From a virus, in the UHGV virus genome UHGV-0392077: a stretch of DNA of 38,618 nt; one strand, written 5' to 3'. A program made the translations under genes and the position numbers. Of this stretch, positions 1-16,083 are shown in pieces (position 1 is the stretch's first letter; each line of letters starts with the position of its first letter). The notes under the pieces are model-generated. The model saw only the letters and a list, made by a program, of their open reading frames with translations. It had not been told where the DNA came from and ran no database searches.

Positions 1-194
1 TGCTGGAGAATCCTGAACTGCTGGCGCAGGACGAATACGCGGCTCGTAGCGCGGCGTGGTTCTTCTCCAGCAAAGGTTGCATGAAGTATACCGACGATAT
101 TGCACGTGTAACTCTGATTATCAATGGTGGCCGGAACGGCATTAATGACCGGCGCGCGCGATACATCACTGCCAGTAAGGTGCTGACGGTATGA
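1..194 (+). CDS. endolysin, C-terminal part (GH19/chitinase-like lysozyme); N-terminal part is at 38183..38618
   Basis: Open frame from base 3 to TGA at 192-194 (LENPELLAQDEYAARSAAWFFSSKGCMKYTDDIARVTLIINGGRNGINDRRARYITASKVLTV*). Base 38618 plus bases 1-2 form an in-frame CTG codon, joining it to the ORF that starts at 38183. Confidence 0.8.
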   Translation, partial: LENPELLAQDEYAARSAAWFFSSKGCMKYTDDIARVTLIINGGRNGINDRRARYITASKVLTV

Positions 195-673
195 TCCTGA
201 CATTCGTAAAAGCATATTGGAAACAGTTGATTATCGTGTTGATGCTTGCTGTTCTGGTCATATCAGGAGTTGTTGCCTGGAATATACACGGCAGTCGTCA
301 GTACGACGCTGGGTATGCGCAGGCGAAGGAAGACCGCAAAGCTGAAGATGAGAGAGTTCGTCAGCACTACGAACAGGAGAAAGCGACCAATGAACGTGAA
401 GCTCAGCAGAGGATCGACCAGGCGCGCAATGATGCTCTTGATGCTGCCGCTCGCGCTGGCCGGTTGCAGCAACAACTCTTTGCCATCCGTGAGCAGCTCA
501 GGCAGTATAACGCCATTGTCGGCGCTGGGACGTCAGCCGCAGACACCGGAGTTTTGCTTGCCGACGTGCTCAGCAAATCTCTCGAGAGAAACAGACAACT
601 GGCAGAGTATGCTGACCGGGCAGCCGAAGCCGGAAGAGTCTGCGAAAAACAGTACGACACCCTGACCAGATAG
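191..673 (+). CDS. Rz: Rz-like i-spanin (inner-membrane spanin)
   Basis: ATG 191 overlaps the endolysin stop (ATGA). N-terminal TM helix (LIIVLMLAVLVISGVVAW) followed by a charged, coiled-coil-like periplasmic domain, with an embedded +1-frame lipoprotein gene: the classic Rz/Rz1 arrangement. Confidence 0.8.
   Translation: MILTFVKAYWKQLIIVLMLAVLVISGVVAWNIHGSRQYDAGYAQAKEDRKAEDERVRQHYEQEKATNEREAQQRIDQARNDALDAAARAGRLQQQLFAIREQLRQYNAIVGAGTSAADTGVLLADVLSKSLERNRQLAEYADRAAEAGRVCEKQYDTLTR
429..665 (+). CDS. Rz1: Rz1-like o-spanin (outer-membrane lipoprotein), embedded in the +1 frame of Rz
   Basis: ATG at 429 in the frame of ORF 246..665. Signal peptide MMLLMLPLALAGC with lipobox LAG|C, then a Pro/Ser-rich mature part. 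Only the distal part of the long ORF is taken as the gene. Confidence 0.7.
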   Translation: MMLLMLPLALAGCSNNSLPSVSSSGSITPLSALGRQPQTPEFCLPTCSANLSRETDNWQSMLTGQPKPEESAKNSTTP

Positions 674-846
674 CATGGCATTTTTCATGGTACTGATTTC
701 CGGTGACGGTATATAAAACGGTACGAGAAAAATTTATCTTTGGAAAAATGTTATCACTCAATTGGTTATGTTATCCGTAAATAATTGAGTGGGAATGATT
801 AACAGCTAACTCATAGCAAGTCATTCCTATTCAGATACTAACTCAA

Positions 847-878
847 CCCTCTGTTTTTACAGAGGGTTTTTGTTTTTA
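847..878 (+). terminator. rho-independent terminator ending the late/lysis operon
   Basis: Stem CCCTCTG (847-853), loop TTTTTA, stem CAGAGGG (860-866), then T-run TTTTTGTTTTT. Confidence 0.6.
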
Positions 879-933
879 TGTATTCATTTCTATTCACTCT
901 ACACCATATTTTTCGGCGGTACAGGTGACGGTA

Positions 934-948
934 TTACCTTAAAGGTAT
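934..948. promoter_or_regulatory. operator-like palindrome TTACC-ttaaa-GGTAT (imperfect copy)
   Basis: Matches the dispersed TTACC-N5-GGTAA motif; lies 43 bp upstream of the int start. Confidence 0.4.
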
Positions 949-990
949 ACTCTCATACCGTCATGAAAATGGTTTCTATACGGGTGAATT

Positions 991-2241
991 GTGCTTACCG
1001 ATACAAAATTAAAAAACCTCAAGCCGCAGGACAAACTGTACAAGGTCTCCGATCGTGACGGGCTGTATGTAGCTGTGCTTACGTCAGGCACGGTCTCGTT
1101 TCGCTACGACTACCGTATCAACGGTCGCCGCGAAACGCTGGTAATCGGGCAGTATGGGCGTGACGGTATCAGCCTGGCAGAAGCGCGAGAAGAACTGATT
1201 GCTGCAAAGAAGCTGCTTAAAGCAGGCCAGTCACCGGCTGCGGCTAAACGTGACGGTATCAAAAAGATTCGTGGTGCCGAGACGTTTGCGGTACATACCG
1301 ACAGTTATATGAAACACGTCATCCTGGCTGACAGTACCCGCGCAATGAAACAGGCGGTGATCGACCGTGACATACTTCCGGTTCTTGGCAATAAAATGAT
1401 GGCTGAAATTACCACATCGATGGTTCGTGATTTGTGTGACCGGATTGTCGAACGCGGTGGCCGGGCAACAGCAGTGCAGGCCAGGGAGATCATCAGTAGC
1501 GTATACCGTCACGCCAATGACCGTGGTCATGGTTTGTTTAATCCTGCGGCTGACATTAAACCTTCGTCTATCGCCATATTTAAACCACGAGAGCGAACAC
1601 TGACACCAGAAGAAATTGGCCTGTTCTTCCGCACGCTGGATGCCATTGGTGCTATGGGCACTATGAAAATGGCTTTAAAACTGGTGCTTATCACTATGGT
1701 TCGTAAGGGCGAATTCACCAATGCAACGTGGGATGAAATAGATTTTAAAAAATGGACATGGACAATTCCTTCAGACCGCATGAAAGGAAGCCGGGCGCAC
1801 GTTATTTACCTGCCTAAACAGGCACAGGATATATTGGTCGGGTTGCAGATGTGCGCTGGTGGAAGTGAATATCTGGTTCCTGGTCGTTACAACTTCCGGA
1901 AGCCATTATCTAATGCCGCGCTGAACTCTCTGATCGACAGAACGGTGAAAATAATAAATGAAGATGGTGAGCATATTCAGGACTTCACCGTACACGATAT
2001 GCGCCGTACAGCCAGTACGTTGTTGCATGAGGCTGGTTATCCTTCAGACTGGATTGAAAAGGCTCTGGCACATGAGCAGAAAGGTGTGCGCGCCGTATAT
2101 AACAAAGCGGAATACGCCAGACAGCGCGCCTACATGTTGCAGCAGTGGGCCGATATGATTGATTCCTGGATTAACGGGGAGCATACGGATCTGATTCCGT
2201 TCTCCCCGTCGAAGTTTGAGAAGTGGATGGCGGGGGAATAA
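991..2241 (+). CDS. int: tyrosine integrase (P4-type, N-terminal arm-binding domain)
   Basis: 416 aa from GTG 991. N-terminus LYKVSDRDGLYVAV...VSFRYDYRINGRRETLVIGQYG resembles the P4-type integrase N-terminal domain; C-terminus carries the catalytic signature HDMRRTASTLLHEAGY...VRAVYNKAEY (H-x-x-R ... Y). Confidence 0.9.
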   Translation: MLTDTKLKNLKPQDKLYKVSDRDGLYVAVLTSGTVSFRYDYRINGRRETLVIGQYGRDGISLAEAREELIAAKKLLKAGQSPAAAKRDGIKKIRGAETFAVHTDSYMKHVILADSTRAMKQAVIDRDILPVLGNKMMAEITTSMVRDLCDRIVERGGRATAVQAREIISSVYRHANDRGHGLFNPAADIKPSSIAIFKPRERTLTPEEIGLFFRTLDAIGAMGTMKMALKLVLITMVRKGEFTNATWDEIDFKKWTWTIPSDRMKGSRAHVIYLPKQAQDILVGLQMCAGGSEYLVPGRYNFRKPLSNAALNSLIDRTVKIINEDGEHIQDFTVHDMRRTASTLLHEAGYPSDWIEKALAHEQKGVRAVYNKAEYARQRAYMLQQWADMIDSWINGEHTDLIPFSPSKFEKWMAGE

Positions 2242-2244
2242 CGT

Positions 2245-2439
2245 TTAATTATTCTGCTGATTTTCTTCCATCTCGGCTTCTGCTGCCAGTGATTCAATTT
2301 TGTCTGCGAATATTGCTGACAGCGTTGCAAATTCAGCATCAGTGACAGCGGGAATCGGAACAAACCTGATCCCGCTGTGTGCAAGCATGTTTGCAGTTTC
2401 AAGGCATTTCCTTAAATCTGCTGGTGATGCCCTGTTCAT
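2245..2439 (-). CDS. hypothetical small protein (64 aa)
   Basis: ATG at 2439 overlaps the stop of the upstream methyltransferase gene (ATGA overlap), suggesting translational coupling; convergent with int with a 3-nt gap. No recognisable motif. Confidence 0.4.
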   Translation of the reverse strand: MNRASPADLRKCLETANMLAHSGIRFVPIPAVTDAEFATLSAIFADKIESLAAEAEMEENQQNN

Positions 2440-3086
2440 GCTGCACGCTCCCGCCCCTGGTTGTCTGTTGGTGACAGCGGAGCATTGCTGAATGCATTTG
2501 TTAATCCGCCAATATCCAACGCGTATCCGGGGTGTAGTTGCACTGCCGGGTCTTCGCACTGATTACCCCAAACATCGAAGCCATGAGACGACTGGCGGGC
2601 GAACAGTTCAATGCGAGAAACATCGCCTAACAATTGCACAAGTTTTTCACGAACGACATCTGGTTTTCTTGAATGCTCAAGCCGCGGTGCCGTAAATGAC
2701 TGAACGATCCCTGCATTAATGCGCGGAGGTAGTTTTCCCTTTACTGCAAACAGGCAATCTTCACTATTGGCGCGAGTCATGTGACCCATACCCATAACCA
2801 GTTTATCTGGTTGTCGACTACCACATTTTATCCACGTGAATCCCTTCATGGTCATCAGACGGAACCCCCAGGCTTCAACAACTTTTAGTGCTTCGAGTGG
2901 TTGTGTTGGCACCCACCACATGGCCAACAGACAGTTTTCATCGGCCAAATCCCACACAGGAAGGCGGCAGATGTCCAGCACACTCATAACCGGATATTTA
3001 AAACCGGCACCGCGATTACCATCTGCGGCTTTGTCCCGGTATACCCAGGGTGGATCTGCATAGATTAGTGTGTATTTCTTAGTCAT
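2436..3086 (-). CDS. MT-A70 family DNA N6-adenine methyltransferase
   Basis: Contains YADPPWVY (the DPPW catalytic motif of MT-A70-type adenine methyltransferases). ATG at 3086 preferred over GTG at 3098. Confidence 0.8.
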   Translation of the reverse strand: MTKKYTLIYADPPWVYRDKAADGNRGAGFKYPVMSVLDICRLPVWDLADENCLLAMWWVPTQPLEALKVVEAWGFRLMTMKGFTWIKCGSRQPDKLVMGMGHMTRANSEDCLFAVKGKLPPRINAGIVQSFTAPRLEHSRKPDVVREKLVQLLGDVSRIELFARQSSHGFDVWGNQCEDPAVQLHPGYALDIGGLTNAFSNAPLSPTDNQGRERAA

Positions 3087-3378
3087 AAACCACCCCACAA
3101 CATCCTATGCCGCTATAGTCGCCACGGCGAAGGCCGTTACCTTTTGTGATACATTGGTCCCTGCGAACCGCGATCCTCGCACGCTCAACATCACCAGAAG
3201 CAACATCCATACACTGAAGCCAAAGGTGAGCGGCAATGCGGAACTGCCCTTTTTTCTCTCTTTCAATCGCGCGTTTTTCGATCTCTATCGCCGCAGGAGT
3301 AACGGCGACAATCTTTGACGGACTGCGCATTGAAACCTTGTTCATGTGATATTTTTCAAGTCGGCTTAACTTTTTCAC
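3079..3378 (-). CDS. hypothetical protein
   Basis: ORF with GTG start at 3378 (SD-like GAGGG upstream) or ATG at 3345; its stop overlaps the methyltransferase start. No recognisable motif. Confidence 0.45.
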   Translation of the reverse strand: MKKLSRLEKYHMNKVSMRSPSKIVAVTPAAIEIEKRAIEREKKGQFRIAAHLWLQCMDVASGDVERARIAVRRDQCITKGNGLRRGDYSGIGCCGVVYD

Positions 3379-3487: not shown

Positions 3488-3736
3488 TCATGCAGCGTTG
3501 CTCACAGGACGATATACACGTTGCTGAACAGGAGGCTTTTTACCCTGGAACTCTGCCGGGCTTGCTGCCTGACGTTCATCAAGCCAACGCTCAACTTCAT
3601 CACGGTTCCATGCGCAGCGTTTGTCAGTGATATACCAGCGTTTAGGAAATTCCCCTGCGCGCTCCATGCGGTCGATAGTGCTCCATGACAGTGGCACCAC
3701 CGCCAGGAGTTCCTTCTTACCTAATGCACCTTTCAT
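3488..3736 (-). CDS. AlpA-family excisionase / transcriptional regulator
   Basis: 82 aa; LSWSTIDRMERAGEFPKRWYI...RCAWNRDEVERWL resembles AlpA/Xis-type winged-HTH proteins that partner P4-type integrases. SD GAGG 7 nt upstream of ATG 3736. Confidence 0.7.
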   Translation of the reverse strand: MKGALGKKELLAVVPLSWSTIDRMERAGEFPKRWYITDKRCAWNRDEVERWLDERQAASPAEFQGKKPPVQQRVYRPVSNAA

Positions 3737-16006: not shown

Positions 16007-16083
16007 TGGCGTGGCATGCAGGATTCGAACCTGCGACCAACCGCTTAGAAGGCGGTTGCTCTGTCCAGCTGAGCTAATGCCAC
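16007..16083 (-). tRNA. tRNA-Arg(UCU): tRNA-Arg (anticodon UCU), argU-like, CCA encoded
   Basis: Minus strand folds by hand into a cloverleaf: acceptor GTGGCAT/ATGCCAC, D-arm GCTC...GAGC, anticodon stem ACCGC/GCGGT with loop CTTCTAA (anticodon TCT), T-arm GCAGG-TTCGAAT-CCTGC, discriminator G plus CCA. Resembles E. coli argU as recalled. Confidence 0.8.

What the first reader, a model, noticed from the sequence alone, without database searches (positions are those of the whole stretch)
674..990. Candidate attP with arm-type direct repeats between lysis cassette and integrase
GGTGACGGTAT is directly repeated 222 bp apart (702, 924). A further inverted copy (TACCGTCA, 956) and one operator-like palindrome lie close to the int start, with a strong terminator between the repeats. 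Arm-site repeats flanking a core are typical of attP for tyrosine integrases. I cannot identify the core or the bacterial target (often a tRNA 3' end for P4-type integrases) from this window.
Basis: partly seen in the sequence, partly recalled or inferred. Interest (0 to 1): 0.45.

Follow-up and report, generated by a model that had tools for sequence, protein, structure and literature searches.

The report
Known phage attP site targeting guaA

Summary
The window is a phiV10-like Uetakevirus, about 97% identical to phiV10 and vB_EcoP_ZX5. The attP core is the 17-bp ATTGAGTGGGAATGATT at 784-800. It is identical to the last four codons plus stop codon of E. coli guaA, so the target is not a tRNA.

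In 569 of 5426 complete E. coli genomes the prophage junctions fall at 784 and 800, between guaA and yfgI. This core has been PCR- and Sanger-verified for ZX5, and that paper says it was already established for phiV10 and epsilon15.

The repeat is really a 9-mer, TGACGGTAT. The window holds 8 copies against 0.26 expected, and 7 of them lie in 184-1511. The copies at -80, +142 and +171(inverted) from the core start, and at +377 and +467 inside int, are conserved in diverged relatives. The epsilon15 GenBank record already annotates four of them as integrase-binding sites.

Two things go beyond the record:
- The same 9-mer keeps fixed offsets from the core in guaA-adjacent integrase loci across alpha-, beta- and gammaproteobacteria.
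- The copy inside int is under DNA-level selection.

The "operator-like" palindrome is probably a degenerate arm copy. The terminator between the repeats resembles guaA's own terminator.

The parts
191..673 (+). Rz-like i-spanin gene, the last gene of the lysis cassette. The Rz1 o-spanin is embedded at about 390-665.
   Evidence: Pfam DUF2514, E=7.6e-45. phiV10 annotation transferred from L002.
702..712 (+). P-arm arm-type site GGTGACGGTAT (9-mer core at 704-712, -80 from the core start). A weaker 6/9 copy, AAACGGTAC, follows at 716-724, 12 bp downstream.
   Evidence: Exact repeat. The block 700-724 is invariant in 9 phages that are 76-97% identical. It sits at -80 in all 9 phage attP regions compared, window included. 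The epsilon15 record annotates it as 'integrase' protein_bind.
752..790 (.). Cluster of three IHF-consensus-like sites (12/13 matches): 752-764(+), 756-768(+), 778-790(-). The last two form the inverted repeat CACTCAATT/AATTGAGTG, which abuts the core.
   Evidence: One search places 3 of the window's 44 one-mismatch hits within these 40 bp, but the window as a whole is not enriched. TCAAT...TTA is invariant in the alignment. The epsilon15 record annotates IHF sites at the equivalent 752-774 and 772-794. Binding is untested.
784..800 (+). attP core ATTGAGTGGGAATGATT, identical to the last 4 codons plus stop of guaA plus 2 nt. The crossover (overlap) is inferred to be GAGTGGG at 787-793, flanked by the near-palindromic heptamers AATAATT (780-786) and AATGATT (794-800).
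   Evidence: Four-way comparison of attP, attB (MG1655) and attL/attR (PCN033). Junction coordinates in 569 E. coli genomes. The same core was published and PCR/Sanger-verified for ZX5. GAGTGGGA was proposed as the core recombination site of the guaA-inserting island GIsul2 (its integrase was not compared with this one here). The position of the overlap is an inference.
821..833 (+). Second repeat family, copy 1 (TCATTCCTATTCA). Candidate site for an accessory, element-encoded factor.
   Evidence: the repeat finder D2. A CTATTC/CTATYG hexamer sits at fixed +43 in 14 of 32 guaA-adjacent sequences compared (window plus 31 relatives), and it changes together with the +106 copy in other lineages.
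845..878 (+). Rho-independent terminator (stem 845-854/859-868, then a T-run). It ends lysis-operon transcription in the phage. In the prophage it lies directly behind guaA and upstream of int.
   Evidence: It is annotated in phiV10 and epsilon15. Its 10-bp stem AACCCTCTGT/ACAGAGGGTT is the same as that of the native guaA terminator in MG1655 attB.
884..896 (+). Second repeat family, copy 2 (TCATTTCTATTCA).
   Evidence: CTATTCACTCTA is invariant in 9 phages. The hexamer sits at fixed +106 in 15 of 32 sequences compared.
914..963 (.). P'-arm cluster of arm-type sites. It holds a weak copy at 914-922 (CGGCGGTAC, 6/9), a strong copy at 924-934 (GGTGACGGTAT, +142), a weak copy at 940-948 (TAAAGGTAT, 7/9) and an inverted strong copy at 955-963 (ATACCGTCA, +171). 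The palindrome at 935-947 arises from the junction of these copies.
   Evidence: Klebsiella relatives carry exact or 8/9 copies at +130, +142 and +156. Offsets of +130/+142 and +171 to +183(-) are kept in most guaA-adjacent loci down to 47% Int identity.
991..2241 (+). Tyrosine integrase, 416 aa, GTG start. Domains: N-terminal arm-DNA-binding, central, and catalytic.
   Evidence: Pfam PF13356 E=3.9e-20, PF22022 E=5.3e-12, PF00589 E=1.4e-19. The 2.6-kb region that contains it is 97% identical to phiV10 and ZX5.
1160..1171 (+). Intragenic arm-type copy (TGACGGTAT at 1161-1169, int+170, +377 from the core).
   Evidence: It is one of only two invariant runs of 9 nt or more among 8 int genes that are 73-80% identical. 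Nineteen sequences keep T-GAC-GGT-AT exactly while the preceding codon encodes R, C, I, P, A or S, always ending in T, and flanking synonymous sites vary. Annotated as 'integrase' binding in epsilon15.
1251..1259 (+). Intragenic arm-type copy (int+260, +467 from the core).
   Evidence: Exact in 10 of 12 close relatives and in most Enterobacterales loci. Annotated in epsilon15.
1289..1302 (.). Invariant intragenic block CGGTACATACCGAC. It consists of head-to-head CGGTA/TACCG half-sites and includes a one-mismatch inverted copy at +511.
   Evidence: It is the second of the two invariant runs of 9 nt or more in int. The one-mismatch copy at +511 recurs in relatives. Function is inferred only.
3488..3736 (-). 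AlpA-family small DNA-binding protein, 82 aa. Candidate excisionase (recombination directionality factor).
   Evidence: Pfam PF05930, E=3.1e-5, 24.2 bits against a cutoff of 21. The role is inferred by analogy (own knowledge: P4 Vis and AlpA-type RDFs). Not tested.

Best explanation
Window 674-990, with extensions into int, is the attP of a phiV10/epsilon15-type temperate podovirus.

What is shown:
- The 17-bp core at 784-800 is identical to the 3' end of guaA in E. coli.
- Lysogens carry the order guaA-core-int...Rz-core-yfgI.
- Because the core contains the last four codons and the stop codon, guaA stays intact after integration.
- The phage terminator at 845-878 then lies directly behind guaA, and the native guaA terminator ends up behind Rz.

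What is inferred:
- The integrase is heterobivalent. Its N-terminal arm-binding domain recognises the 9-mer TGACGGTAT at -80 (P arm) and in the +130 to +171 cluster (P' arm). Its C-terminal domains act at the core, probably exchanging strands across GAGTGGG (787-793).
- IHF-like sites at 752-790 bend the P arm.
- A second repeat (TCATTYCTATTCA, on both sides of the terminator) probably binds an accessory factor, such as the AlpA-like candidate excisionase.
- The copies immediately upstream of and inside int probably also let Int repress or modulate its own expression.
For: - Identity of the phage: the first 2.6 kb of the window is 97% identical to phiV10, ZX5 and O157 typing phages.
- Core: the attP/attB/attL/attR comparison gives exactly 17 shared bp, with different bases on both sides.
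- Junctions: attL matches begin at window 784 next to guaA in hundreds of genomes. attR matches end at window 800, next to yfgI in the genomes inspected.
- Tandem lysogen: FDAARGOS_1301 has an intact attP between its two prophage copies.
- Literature: the same core and guaA target were PCR/Sanger-verified for ZX5, and that paper states they were already established for phiV10 and epsilon15. The epsilon15 integrase cluster is described as targeting the guaA 3' flank.
- Integrase: it has the PF13356 arm-binding domain.
- Motif enrichment: the 9-mer occurs 8 times against 0.26 expected.
- Motif conservation: position and sequence are conserved at -80, +142, +171, +377 and +467 in relatives down to 73% nucleotide identity.
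- Deep conservation: in guaA-adjacent loci with 47-91% Int identity from three proteobacterial classes, the 9-mer keeps its +130/+142/+182/+207/+277 offsets from the core. Meanwhile the int start moves from +206 to +375 and, as printed for ten representative loci, the surrounding DNA shows no evident similarity.
- DNA-level selection on the intragenic copy.
Against: - No binding data exist for Int, IHF or the AlpA-like protein on these sequences. Arm-site function rests on comparative evidence and on a database annotation that was itself predicted.
- The scan found no sigma-70-like promoter for int in 500-1200, so the autoregulation step has no defined promoter.
- The IHF consensus is not enriched in the window as a whole (44 hits against 38 expected).
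- The copy at 184 is not conserved in phiV10 or epsilon15, so not every copy is functional.
- The position of the overlap is carried over from the guaA-inserting island GIsul2, whose integrase was not compared with this one. It was not mapped here.
Confidence: 0.93

Rival explanations
1. The repeats act at the RNA level. The inverted pair 926-934/955-963 would form a hairpin in the int leader that RNase III processes, as the epsilon15 record annotates, and would not be Int-binding DNA.
For: The epsilon15 GenBank record marks the equivalent of 926-964 as an 'RNaseIII' site. The two 9-nt arms are perfectly complementary.
Against: - Folding 915-995 as RNA is unremarkable: z = -1.08, and 31 of 200 shuffles fold as well.
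- No compensatory change occurs in 9 sequences. The only changes break pairs, in Tyrion and BUCT554.
- A hairpin does not explain the direct copies at -80, +377 and +467, nor the fixed offsets of direct copies in distant loci.
- This explanation is not exclusive of Int binding.
Confidence: 0.07
2. The repeats are purely transcriptional operators for int, used for autoregulation or by a phage repressor, and play no part in the recombination complex.
For: Four copies or degenerate copies are packed into 914-963, only 28 bp before the int start, and further copies lie inside int.
Against: - One strong, invariant copy lies 80 bp on the other side of the core. It is 290 bp and a terminator away from int.
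- Across the clade the sites keep their distance to the core (+142, +182), not to the int start, which ranges from +206 to +375.
- The integrase carries a dedicated arm-binding domain.
Confidence: 0.1
3. The repeats are chance matches or by-products of coding sequence (the RDGI codons).
For: Three copies lie in coding sequence, and two of them encode the same RDGI peptide. The copy at 184 is not conserved.
Against: - None of 100 shuffles reach the observed count.
- The first T of the motif is kept through six different amino acids at that codon, while flanking synonymous sites vary.
- Relatives that encode PDGIS or RDGIS but come from other lineages use other codons.
- The intergenic copies are conserved in DNA that is otherwise unrelated.
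Confidence: 0.01

Closest known systems
attP of Uetakevirus phages phiV10, epsilon15 and vB_EcoP_ZX5 (integration at the guaA 3' end)
   Same: Identical 17-bp core attgagtgggaatgatt, 190 bp upstream of int. Same gene order (lysis cassette, attP, int). Same guaA target. 97% nucleotide identity to phiV10 and ZX5. The same 10-bp repeats are annotated as integrase-binding sites in the epsilon15 record.
   Different: Nothing of substance. This is another isolate or prophage of the same group. The site at 184 is an extra, non-conserved copy of the 9-mer.
Lambda attP (heterobivalent Int with arm sites P1, P2, P'1-3, and IHF/Xis/Fis sites). Comparison from own knowledge.
   Same: An integrase with a separate arm-binding domain. 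Arm-type repeats, distinct from the core, on both sides of it. Tandem copies in the P' arm. IHF-like sites between the P arm and the core. attP adjacent to int.
   Different: - The arm motif, core sequence and target (intragenic 3' end of guaA) all differ.
- The P' sites lie further from the core (+130 to +171) and are separated from it by a terminator.
- Extra conserved copies lie inside the int ORF.
- The integrase belongs to the P4/SXT-like group, not the lambda group.
guaA-targeting genomic islands (GIsul2, CMGI-3) of the epsilon15 integrase cluster
   Same: Insertion at the guaA 3' end within the shared GAGTGGGA, and an int-plus-alpA module. The guaA-adjacent integrase relatives I fetched share the TGACGGTAT arm layout.
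   Different: Those are islands or ICE-like elements, not phages. The GIsul2 paper never uses the word 'arm' (0 occurrences in a text search). I did not examine GIsul2 or CMGI-3 themselves.
P4 attP and P4-type integrases that target tRNA 3' ends (own knowledge)
   Same: P4-type catalytic domain annotation (cd00801 in the phiV10 record). attP next to int. A small AlpA/Vis-like candidate RDF.
   Different: The core matches a protein-coding 3' end, not a tRNA. The only tRNA in the window, tRNA-Arg at 16007-16083, is unrelated to the site.

Membership tests
Uetakevirus (phiV10/epsilon15/ZX5) attP at guaA | 17-bp core attgagtgggaatgatt shared by phage and host | tested here: met
   Window 784-800 is identical to the published core and to MG1655 attB.
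Uetakevirus (phiV10/epsilon15/ZX5) attP at guaA | Core lies about 190 bp upstream of the integrase gene, downstream of the lysis cassette | tested here: met
   801-990 is 190 bp. Rz ends at 673 and int starts at 991.
Uetakevirus (phiV10/epsilon15/ZX5) attP at guaA | Prophage junctions at the 3' end of guaA in lysogens | tested here: met
   569 E. coli genomes hold junctions. attL starts at 784 beside guaA. attR ends at 800, beside yfgI where inspected.
Uetakevirus (phiV10/epsilon15/ZX5) attP at guaA | Integrase of the epsilon15 cluster | tested here: met
   The region holding int is 97% identical to phiV10 and 84% to epsilon15. The first 330 residues of Int are 87% identical to epsilon15. The cluster is described as guaA-targeting.
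Complex (lambda-type) attP of a heterobivalent tyrosine integrase | Integrase carries a separate N-terminal arm-type DNA-binding domain | tested here: met
   PF13356 at residues 2-87, E=3.9e-20.
Complex (lambda-type) attP of a heterobivalent tyrosine integrase | Repeated arm-type sequence, different from the core, on both sides of the core | tested here: met
   TGACGGTAT at -80, +142 and +171(-), enriched and conserved.
Complex (lambda-type) attP of a heterobivalent tyrosine integrase | Int physically binds the arm sites and needs them for integration | not testable with these tools
   Needs EMSA or footprinting and mutant attP assays. Only comparative evidence is available.
Complex (lambda-type) attP of a heterobivalent tyrosine integrase | Sites for DNA-bending accessory proteins (IHF) between arm and core | tested here: inconclusive
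   Three 12/13 consensus matches cluster at 752-790 with key bases invariant. The consensus is not enriched overall, and binding is untested.
Complex (lambda-type) attP of a heterobivalent tyrosine integrase | Element encodes a recombination directionality factor | tested here: inconclusive
   An AlpA-family ORF at 3488-3736(-) scores just above the Pfam cutoff. Its function is not shown.
   The core equals the guaA codons ATT GAG TGG GAA TGA. All inspected junctions abut guaA.

The most novel reading that the evidence does not exclude
The most novel reading not excluded is that the attP is larger and more structured than the published 17-bp core. Three parts support this:
- The P' arm, or an Int-dependent regulatory extension of it, reaches about 520 bp from the core into the int ORF. 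There, TGACGGTAT copies at int+170 and int+260 and the invariant CGGTACATACCGAC block are kept by DNA-level selection. They would serve Int autoregulation or a higher-order intasome.
- A second repeat family flanks the terminator and co-varies between lineages. It would mark the sites of an element-encoded factor.
- Together these would define a common attP layout for the whole guaA-targeting integrase clade, which is described as including genomic islands such as CMGI-3.
Probability: 0.45. Interest if true: 0.35.

Novelty: already known. Interest (0 to 1): 0.15.

Why it matters
For this window it matters little. It confirms that the phage is a standard guaA-integrating Uetakevirus with a published, experimentally verified attachment site. 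Roughly one in ten complete E. coli genomes (569 of 5426) holds junction matches to this attP region.

The modest added value is comparative. The arm-site 9-mer and its spacing from the core are conserved across guaA-adjacent integrase loci from three proteobacterial classes. One copy is maintained inside the integrase gene by selection on the DNA itself. That gives a ready, testable map for dissecting this integrase. It could help in designing guaA-site integration vectors or in predicting the mobility of guaA-inserted islands of this integrase cluster.

Tried and rejected
- tRNA target: rejected. The core is guaA coding sequence, and the only tRNA in the window is 15 kb away.
- RNA hairpin or RNase III reading of 924-963: no thermodynamic or covariation support.
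- Operator reading of the palindrome at 935-947: its two halves change independently in relatives. In Klebsiella phages the right half becomes a better arm-site copy (TTACGGTAT).
- Mapping the crossover from a natural polymorphism: PCN033 attR reads GGGAATAATT. No intact attB carrying that base exists among 4245 genomes, so it is probably a private mutation and tells nothing.
- A 57-bp match of 784-840 beside guaA in genomes with a single hit looked like a longer attB homology. It turned out to be attL of more diverged prophages.
- int promoter: the consensus scan found none in 500-1200, so the promoter is left undefined.
- Rfam: only a sub-threshold MicX hit (22.6 bits against 75), treated as chance.
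- Literature: the full text of Kropinski 2007 is not held, so I relied on its GenBank annotation and on citing papers. A text search for the motif string returned only unrelated papers.
- The 9-mer copy at 184-192: not conserved in phiV10 or epsilon15, so treated as fortuitous.

Full report
**What is in the sequence.** Window 1-2600 reads, on the + strand, as follows:
- the 3' part of a GH19 endolysin;
- an Rz-like spanin (191-673, DUF2514) with Rz1 embedded;
- a 317-bp non-coding stretch (674-990);
- a 416-aa tyrosine integrase (991-2241, GTG start).

- GGTGACGGTAT at 702-712 and 924-934;
- an inverted copy, actually 9 nt (ATACCGTCA), at 955-963;
- a perfect 10-bp-stem terminator at 845-868 with a T-run;
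- the palindrome TACCTT-A-AAGGTA at 935-947.

The repeat is far beyond chance. The 9-mer TGACGGTAT has 8 exact copies in 38.6 kb against 0.26 expected, and none of 100 shuffles reached that count. Seven copies fall within 184-1511: 184, 704, 926, 955(-), 1161, 1251 and 1503(-).

**What phage this is.** The first 2.6 kb is 97% identical to Escherichia phages phiV10, vB_EcoP_ZX5 and O157 typing phages 9 and 10. It is about 84% identical to Salmonella phage epsilon15 (genus Uetakevirus). The phiV10 and epsilon15 records show the same gene order.

**Where the core is.** A 901-bp probe across the region hits 569 of 5426 complete E. coli genomes, usually twice. One class of hits starts at window 784 and abuts guaA. 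The other ends at window 800 and abuts yfgI in the genomes inspected. I compared attP (window), attB (MG1655) and attL and attR (strain PCN033) directly. The shared block is exactly 17 bp, ATTGAGTGGGAATGATT (784-800), with different bases on each side.

The block is ATT GAG TGG GAA TGA plus TT. That is the last four codons and stop codon of guaA, so integration leaves guaA intact.

Five genomes carry the uninterrupted attP inside the chromosome. The one I inspected, FDAARGOS_1301, is a tandem double lysogen with the order guaA, prophage, attP, prophage, yfgI.

About 4245 genomes have an unoccupied attB.

That test is passed.

[quoted passage not shown] It verified attB, attL and attR by PCR and Sanger sequencing, and it states that the same sequence was already established as attP of phiV10 and epsilon15. 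A survey of tyrosine recombinases describes the epsilon15 cluster, which includes CMGI-3, as targeting the guaA 3' flank. Phage TL-2011b was reported inserted in guaA.

The epsilon15 RefSeq record annotates 10-bp "integrase" binding sites that correspond to window 703-712, 925-934, 1160-1169 and 1250-1259. It also annotates three IHF sites, RNase III sites and the terminator. They have not, as far as I could find, been tested.

**Evidence that the repeats are functional arm-type sites.**

*Close relatives.* In 11 relatives that are 73-98% identical, the copies at -80, +142, +171(-), +377 and +467 from the core start keep both sequence and position. The relatives include phiV10, epsilon15, SPN1S, 65FD, Tyrion, BUCT554, BUCT711 and Klebsiella and E. 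coli prophages. The copy at 184 is not conserved. An alignment of the nine phage attP regions shows invariant blocks at four places: 700-724, the core and its left flank (GTAAATAATTGAGTGGGAATGAT), the terminator, and the 917-950 cluster.

*Weak partners.* Each strong copy has a weaker partner 12 bp away: AAACGGTAC at 716 and CGGCGGTAC at 914. A further 7/9 copy (TAAAGGTAT) lies at 940. In Klebsiella relatives the copies at +130 and +156 are exact or 8/9. Its halves change independently in relatives, without preserving symmetry. I therefore read it as part of the arm-site cluster.

*Distant relatives.* A scan of one genome per species with the integrase returned 47 loci. Thirty-one of the 39 examined had int directly downstream of a guaA ending in (I/V)EWE*. 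These loci range from 91% down to 47% Int identity and span gamma-, beta- and alphaproteobacteria. In most of them TGACGGTAT, exact or with one mismatch, sits at fixed offsets from the core:
- +130/+142 (direct);
- +171 to +183 (inverted);
- +207 and +277 in the more distant lineages.

Meanwhile the int start moves between +206 and +375, and in the ten representative loci I printed the intervening DNA shows no evident similarity. Sites that track the core rather than the gene start argue for a role in the recombination complex, not merely in int transcription.

**Intragenic copies.** Among eight int genes that are 73-80% identical, only 19% of synonymous third positions are invariant. Only two invariant runs of 9 nt or more exist in the first 990 nt. 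They are GTGACGGTATCA (1160-1171) and CGGTACATACCGAC (1289-1302), the latter holding head-to-head CGGTA/TACCG half-sites.

Nineteen sequences keep T-GAC-GGT-AT exactly at int+170. In them the preceding codon is CGT, TGT, ATT, CCT, GCT or TCT, which are six different amino acids, all with codons ending in T. Flanking synonymous positions vary freely. Beta- and alphaproteobacterial relatives that encode the same PDGIS or RDGIS peptide use other codons. This is selection on the DNA, not on the protein.

What these copies do is not shown. The possibilities are an extended P' arm or Int autoregulation.

**Other features.**

*IHF-like sites.* Three 12/13 matches to the IHF consensus cluster at 752-790, and their key bases are invariant. 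The consensus is not enriched window-wide, so this stays a prediction.

*Terminator.* The terminator at 845-868 has the same 10-bp stem (AACCCTCTGT/ACAGAGGGTT) as the native guaA terminator just downstream of attB in MG1655. After integration the phage copy sits behind guaA and in front of int, and the native copy sits behind Rz. Each of the ten distant loci I printed also shows its own hairpin followed by a T-run in the same place.

*Second repeat.* TCATTCCTATTCA at 821-833 and TCATTTCTATTCA at 884-896 flank the terminator. In the relatives a CTATYG/CTATTC hexamer sits at fixed +33/+43 and +96/+106. Where a lineage uses a different word, both locations change together. That suggests an element-encoded sequence-specific factor. 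The AlpA-family ORF at 3488-3736(-) is a candidate excisionase. I did not test the link.

*Crossover position.* GAGTGGGA was proposed as the core recombination site for the guaA-inserting island GIsul2. I did not compare its integrase with this one. In this window GAGTGGG (787-793) is flanked by the near-palindromic heptamers AATAATT and AATGATT. I therefore infer a 7-bp overlap there. This is inference only.

**Rivals.**
- An RNA hairpin or RNase III site at 924-963, as annotated in epsilon15, has no support. The fold z-score is -1.08, there are no compensatory changes, and the pairs are broken in Tyrion and BUCT554.
- A purely transcriptional operator role does not explain the invariant copy at -80, beyond the terminator, nor the offsets that are locked to the core.
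- Chance or a coding by-product is excluded.

**Verdict.** The feature is the already-known attP of phiV10/epsilon15-type phages, so interest is low. The incremental points may be worth a specialist's bench test. They are the clade-wide conservation of the arm-site layout, DNA-level selection on an arm-type copy inside int, and a second co-varying repeat around a replacement terminator.

Noticed in passing
window 821-833 and 884-896; loci L016-L054 at +33/+43 and +96/+106 from the core: A second direct-repeat family (TCATTYCTATTCA) flanks the terminator. Related hexamers (CTATYG/CTATTC) sit at fixed offsets in guaA-adjacent relatives. In lineages with a different word, both locations change together. 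This suggests binding sites for an element-encoded factor, possibly the RDF.
   Followed up: partly
window 845-868 versus MG1655 attB (L008): The phage terminator has the same 10-bp stem as the native guaA terminator. Integration swaps the two, so guaA and Rz each still end at a terminator. The ten distant guaA-site loci printed each show a hairpin plus T-run at the same place.
   Followed up: partly
window 1160-1171 and 1289-1302 (inside int): These are the only two invariant runs of 9 nt or more among eight diverged int genes. The first is an arm-type 9-mer whose first T survives six different amino-acid replacements of its codon. The second is a CGGTA/TACCG head-to-head block.
   Followed up: yes
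NZ_CP070111.1 4,835,000-4,918,000 (L063, L064): E. coli FDAARGOS_1301 carries two tandem copies of the prophage at guaA with an intact attP between them. One copy has an IS2 insertion and the other a frameshifted peptidase gene. Four other genomes also show an intact attP plus both junctions.
   Followed up: partly
NZ_CP006632.1 attR (L004, about 1095): The PCN033 attR core reads GGGAATAATT instead of GGGAATGATT. No unoccupied attB with that base was found in 4245 genomes, so it is probably a private mutation.
   Followed up: yes
window 16007-16083 (-): The phage carries a tRNA-Arg(tct) gene. It is unrelated to the attachment site.
   Followed up: no
NZ_CP079771.1 and NZ_CP079768.1 (41,027-bp 'plasmid' records): Two duck E. 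coli assemblies list a 41-kb plasmid that matches the Rz-attP-int region at 88% identity with attP uninterrupted. These are probably circular or extrachromosomal genomes of a related phage.
   Followed up: no
window 717-874: A sub-threshold Rfam match to the Vibrio sRNA MicX (22.6 bits against a gathering score of 75, E=0.044). It is most likely driven by the terminator and treated as chance.
   Followed up: no
window 3079-3378 (-) and 2245-2439 (-): A PerC-family transcriptional activator homologue and a DUF1382 protein lie just downstream of int on the opposite strand, as in phiV10.
   Followed up: no
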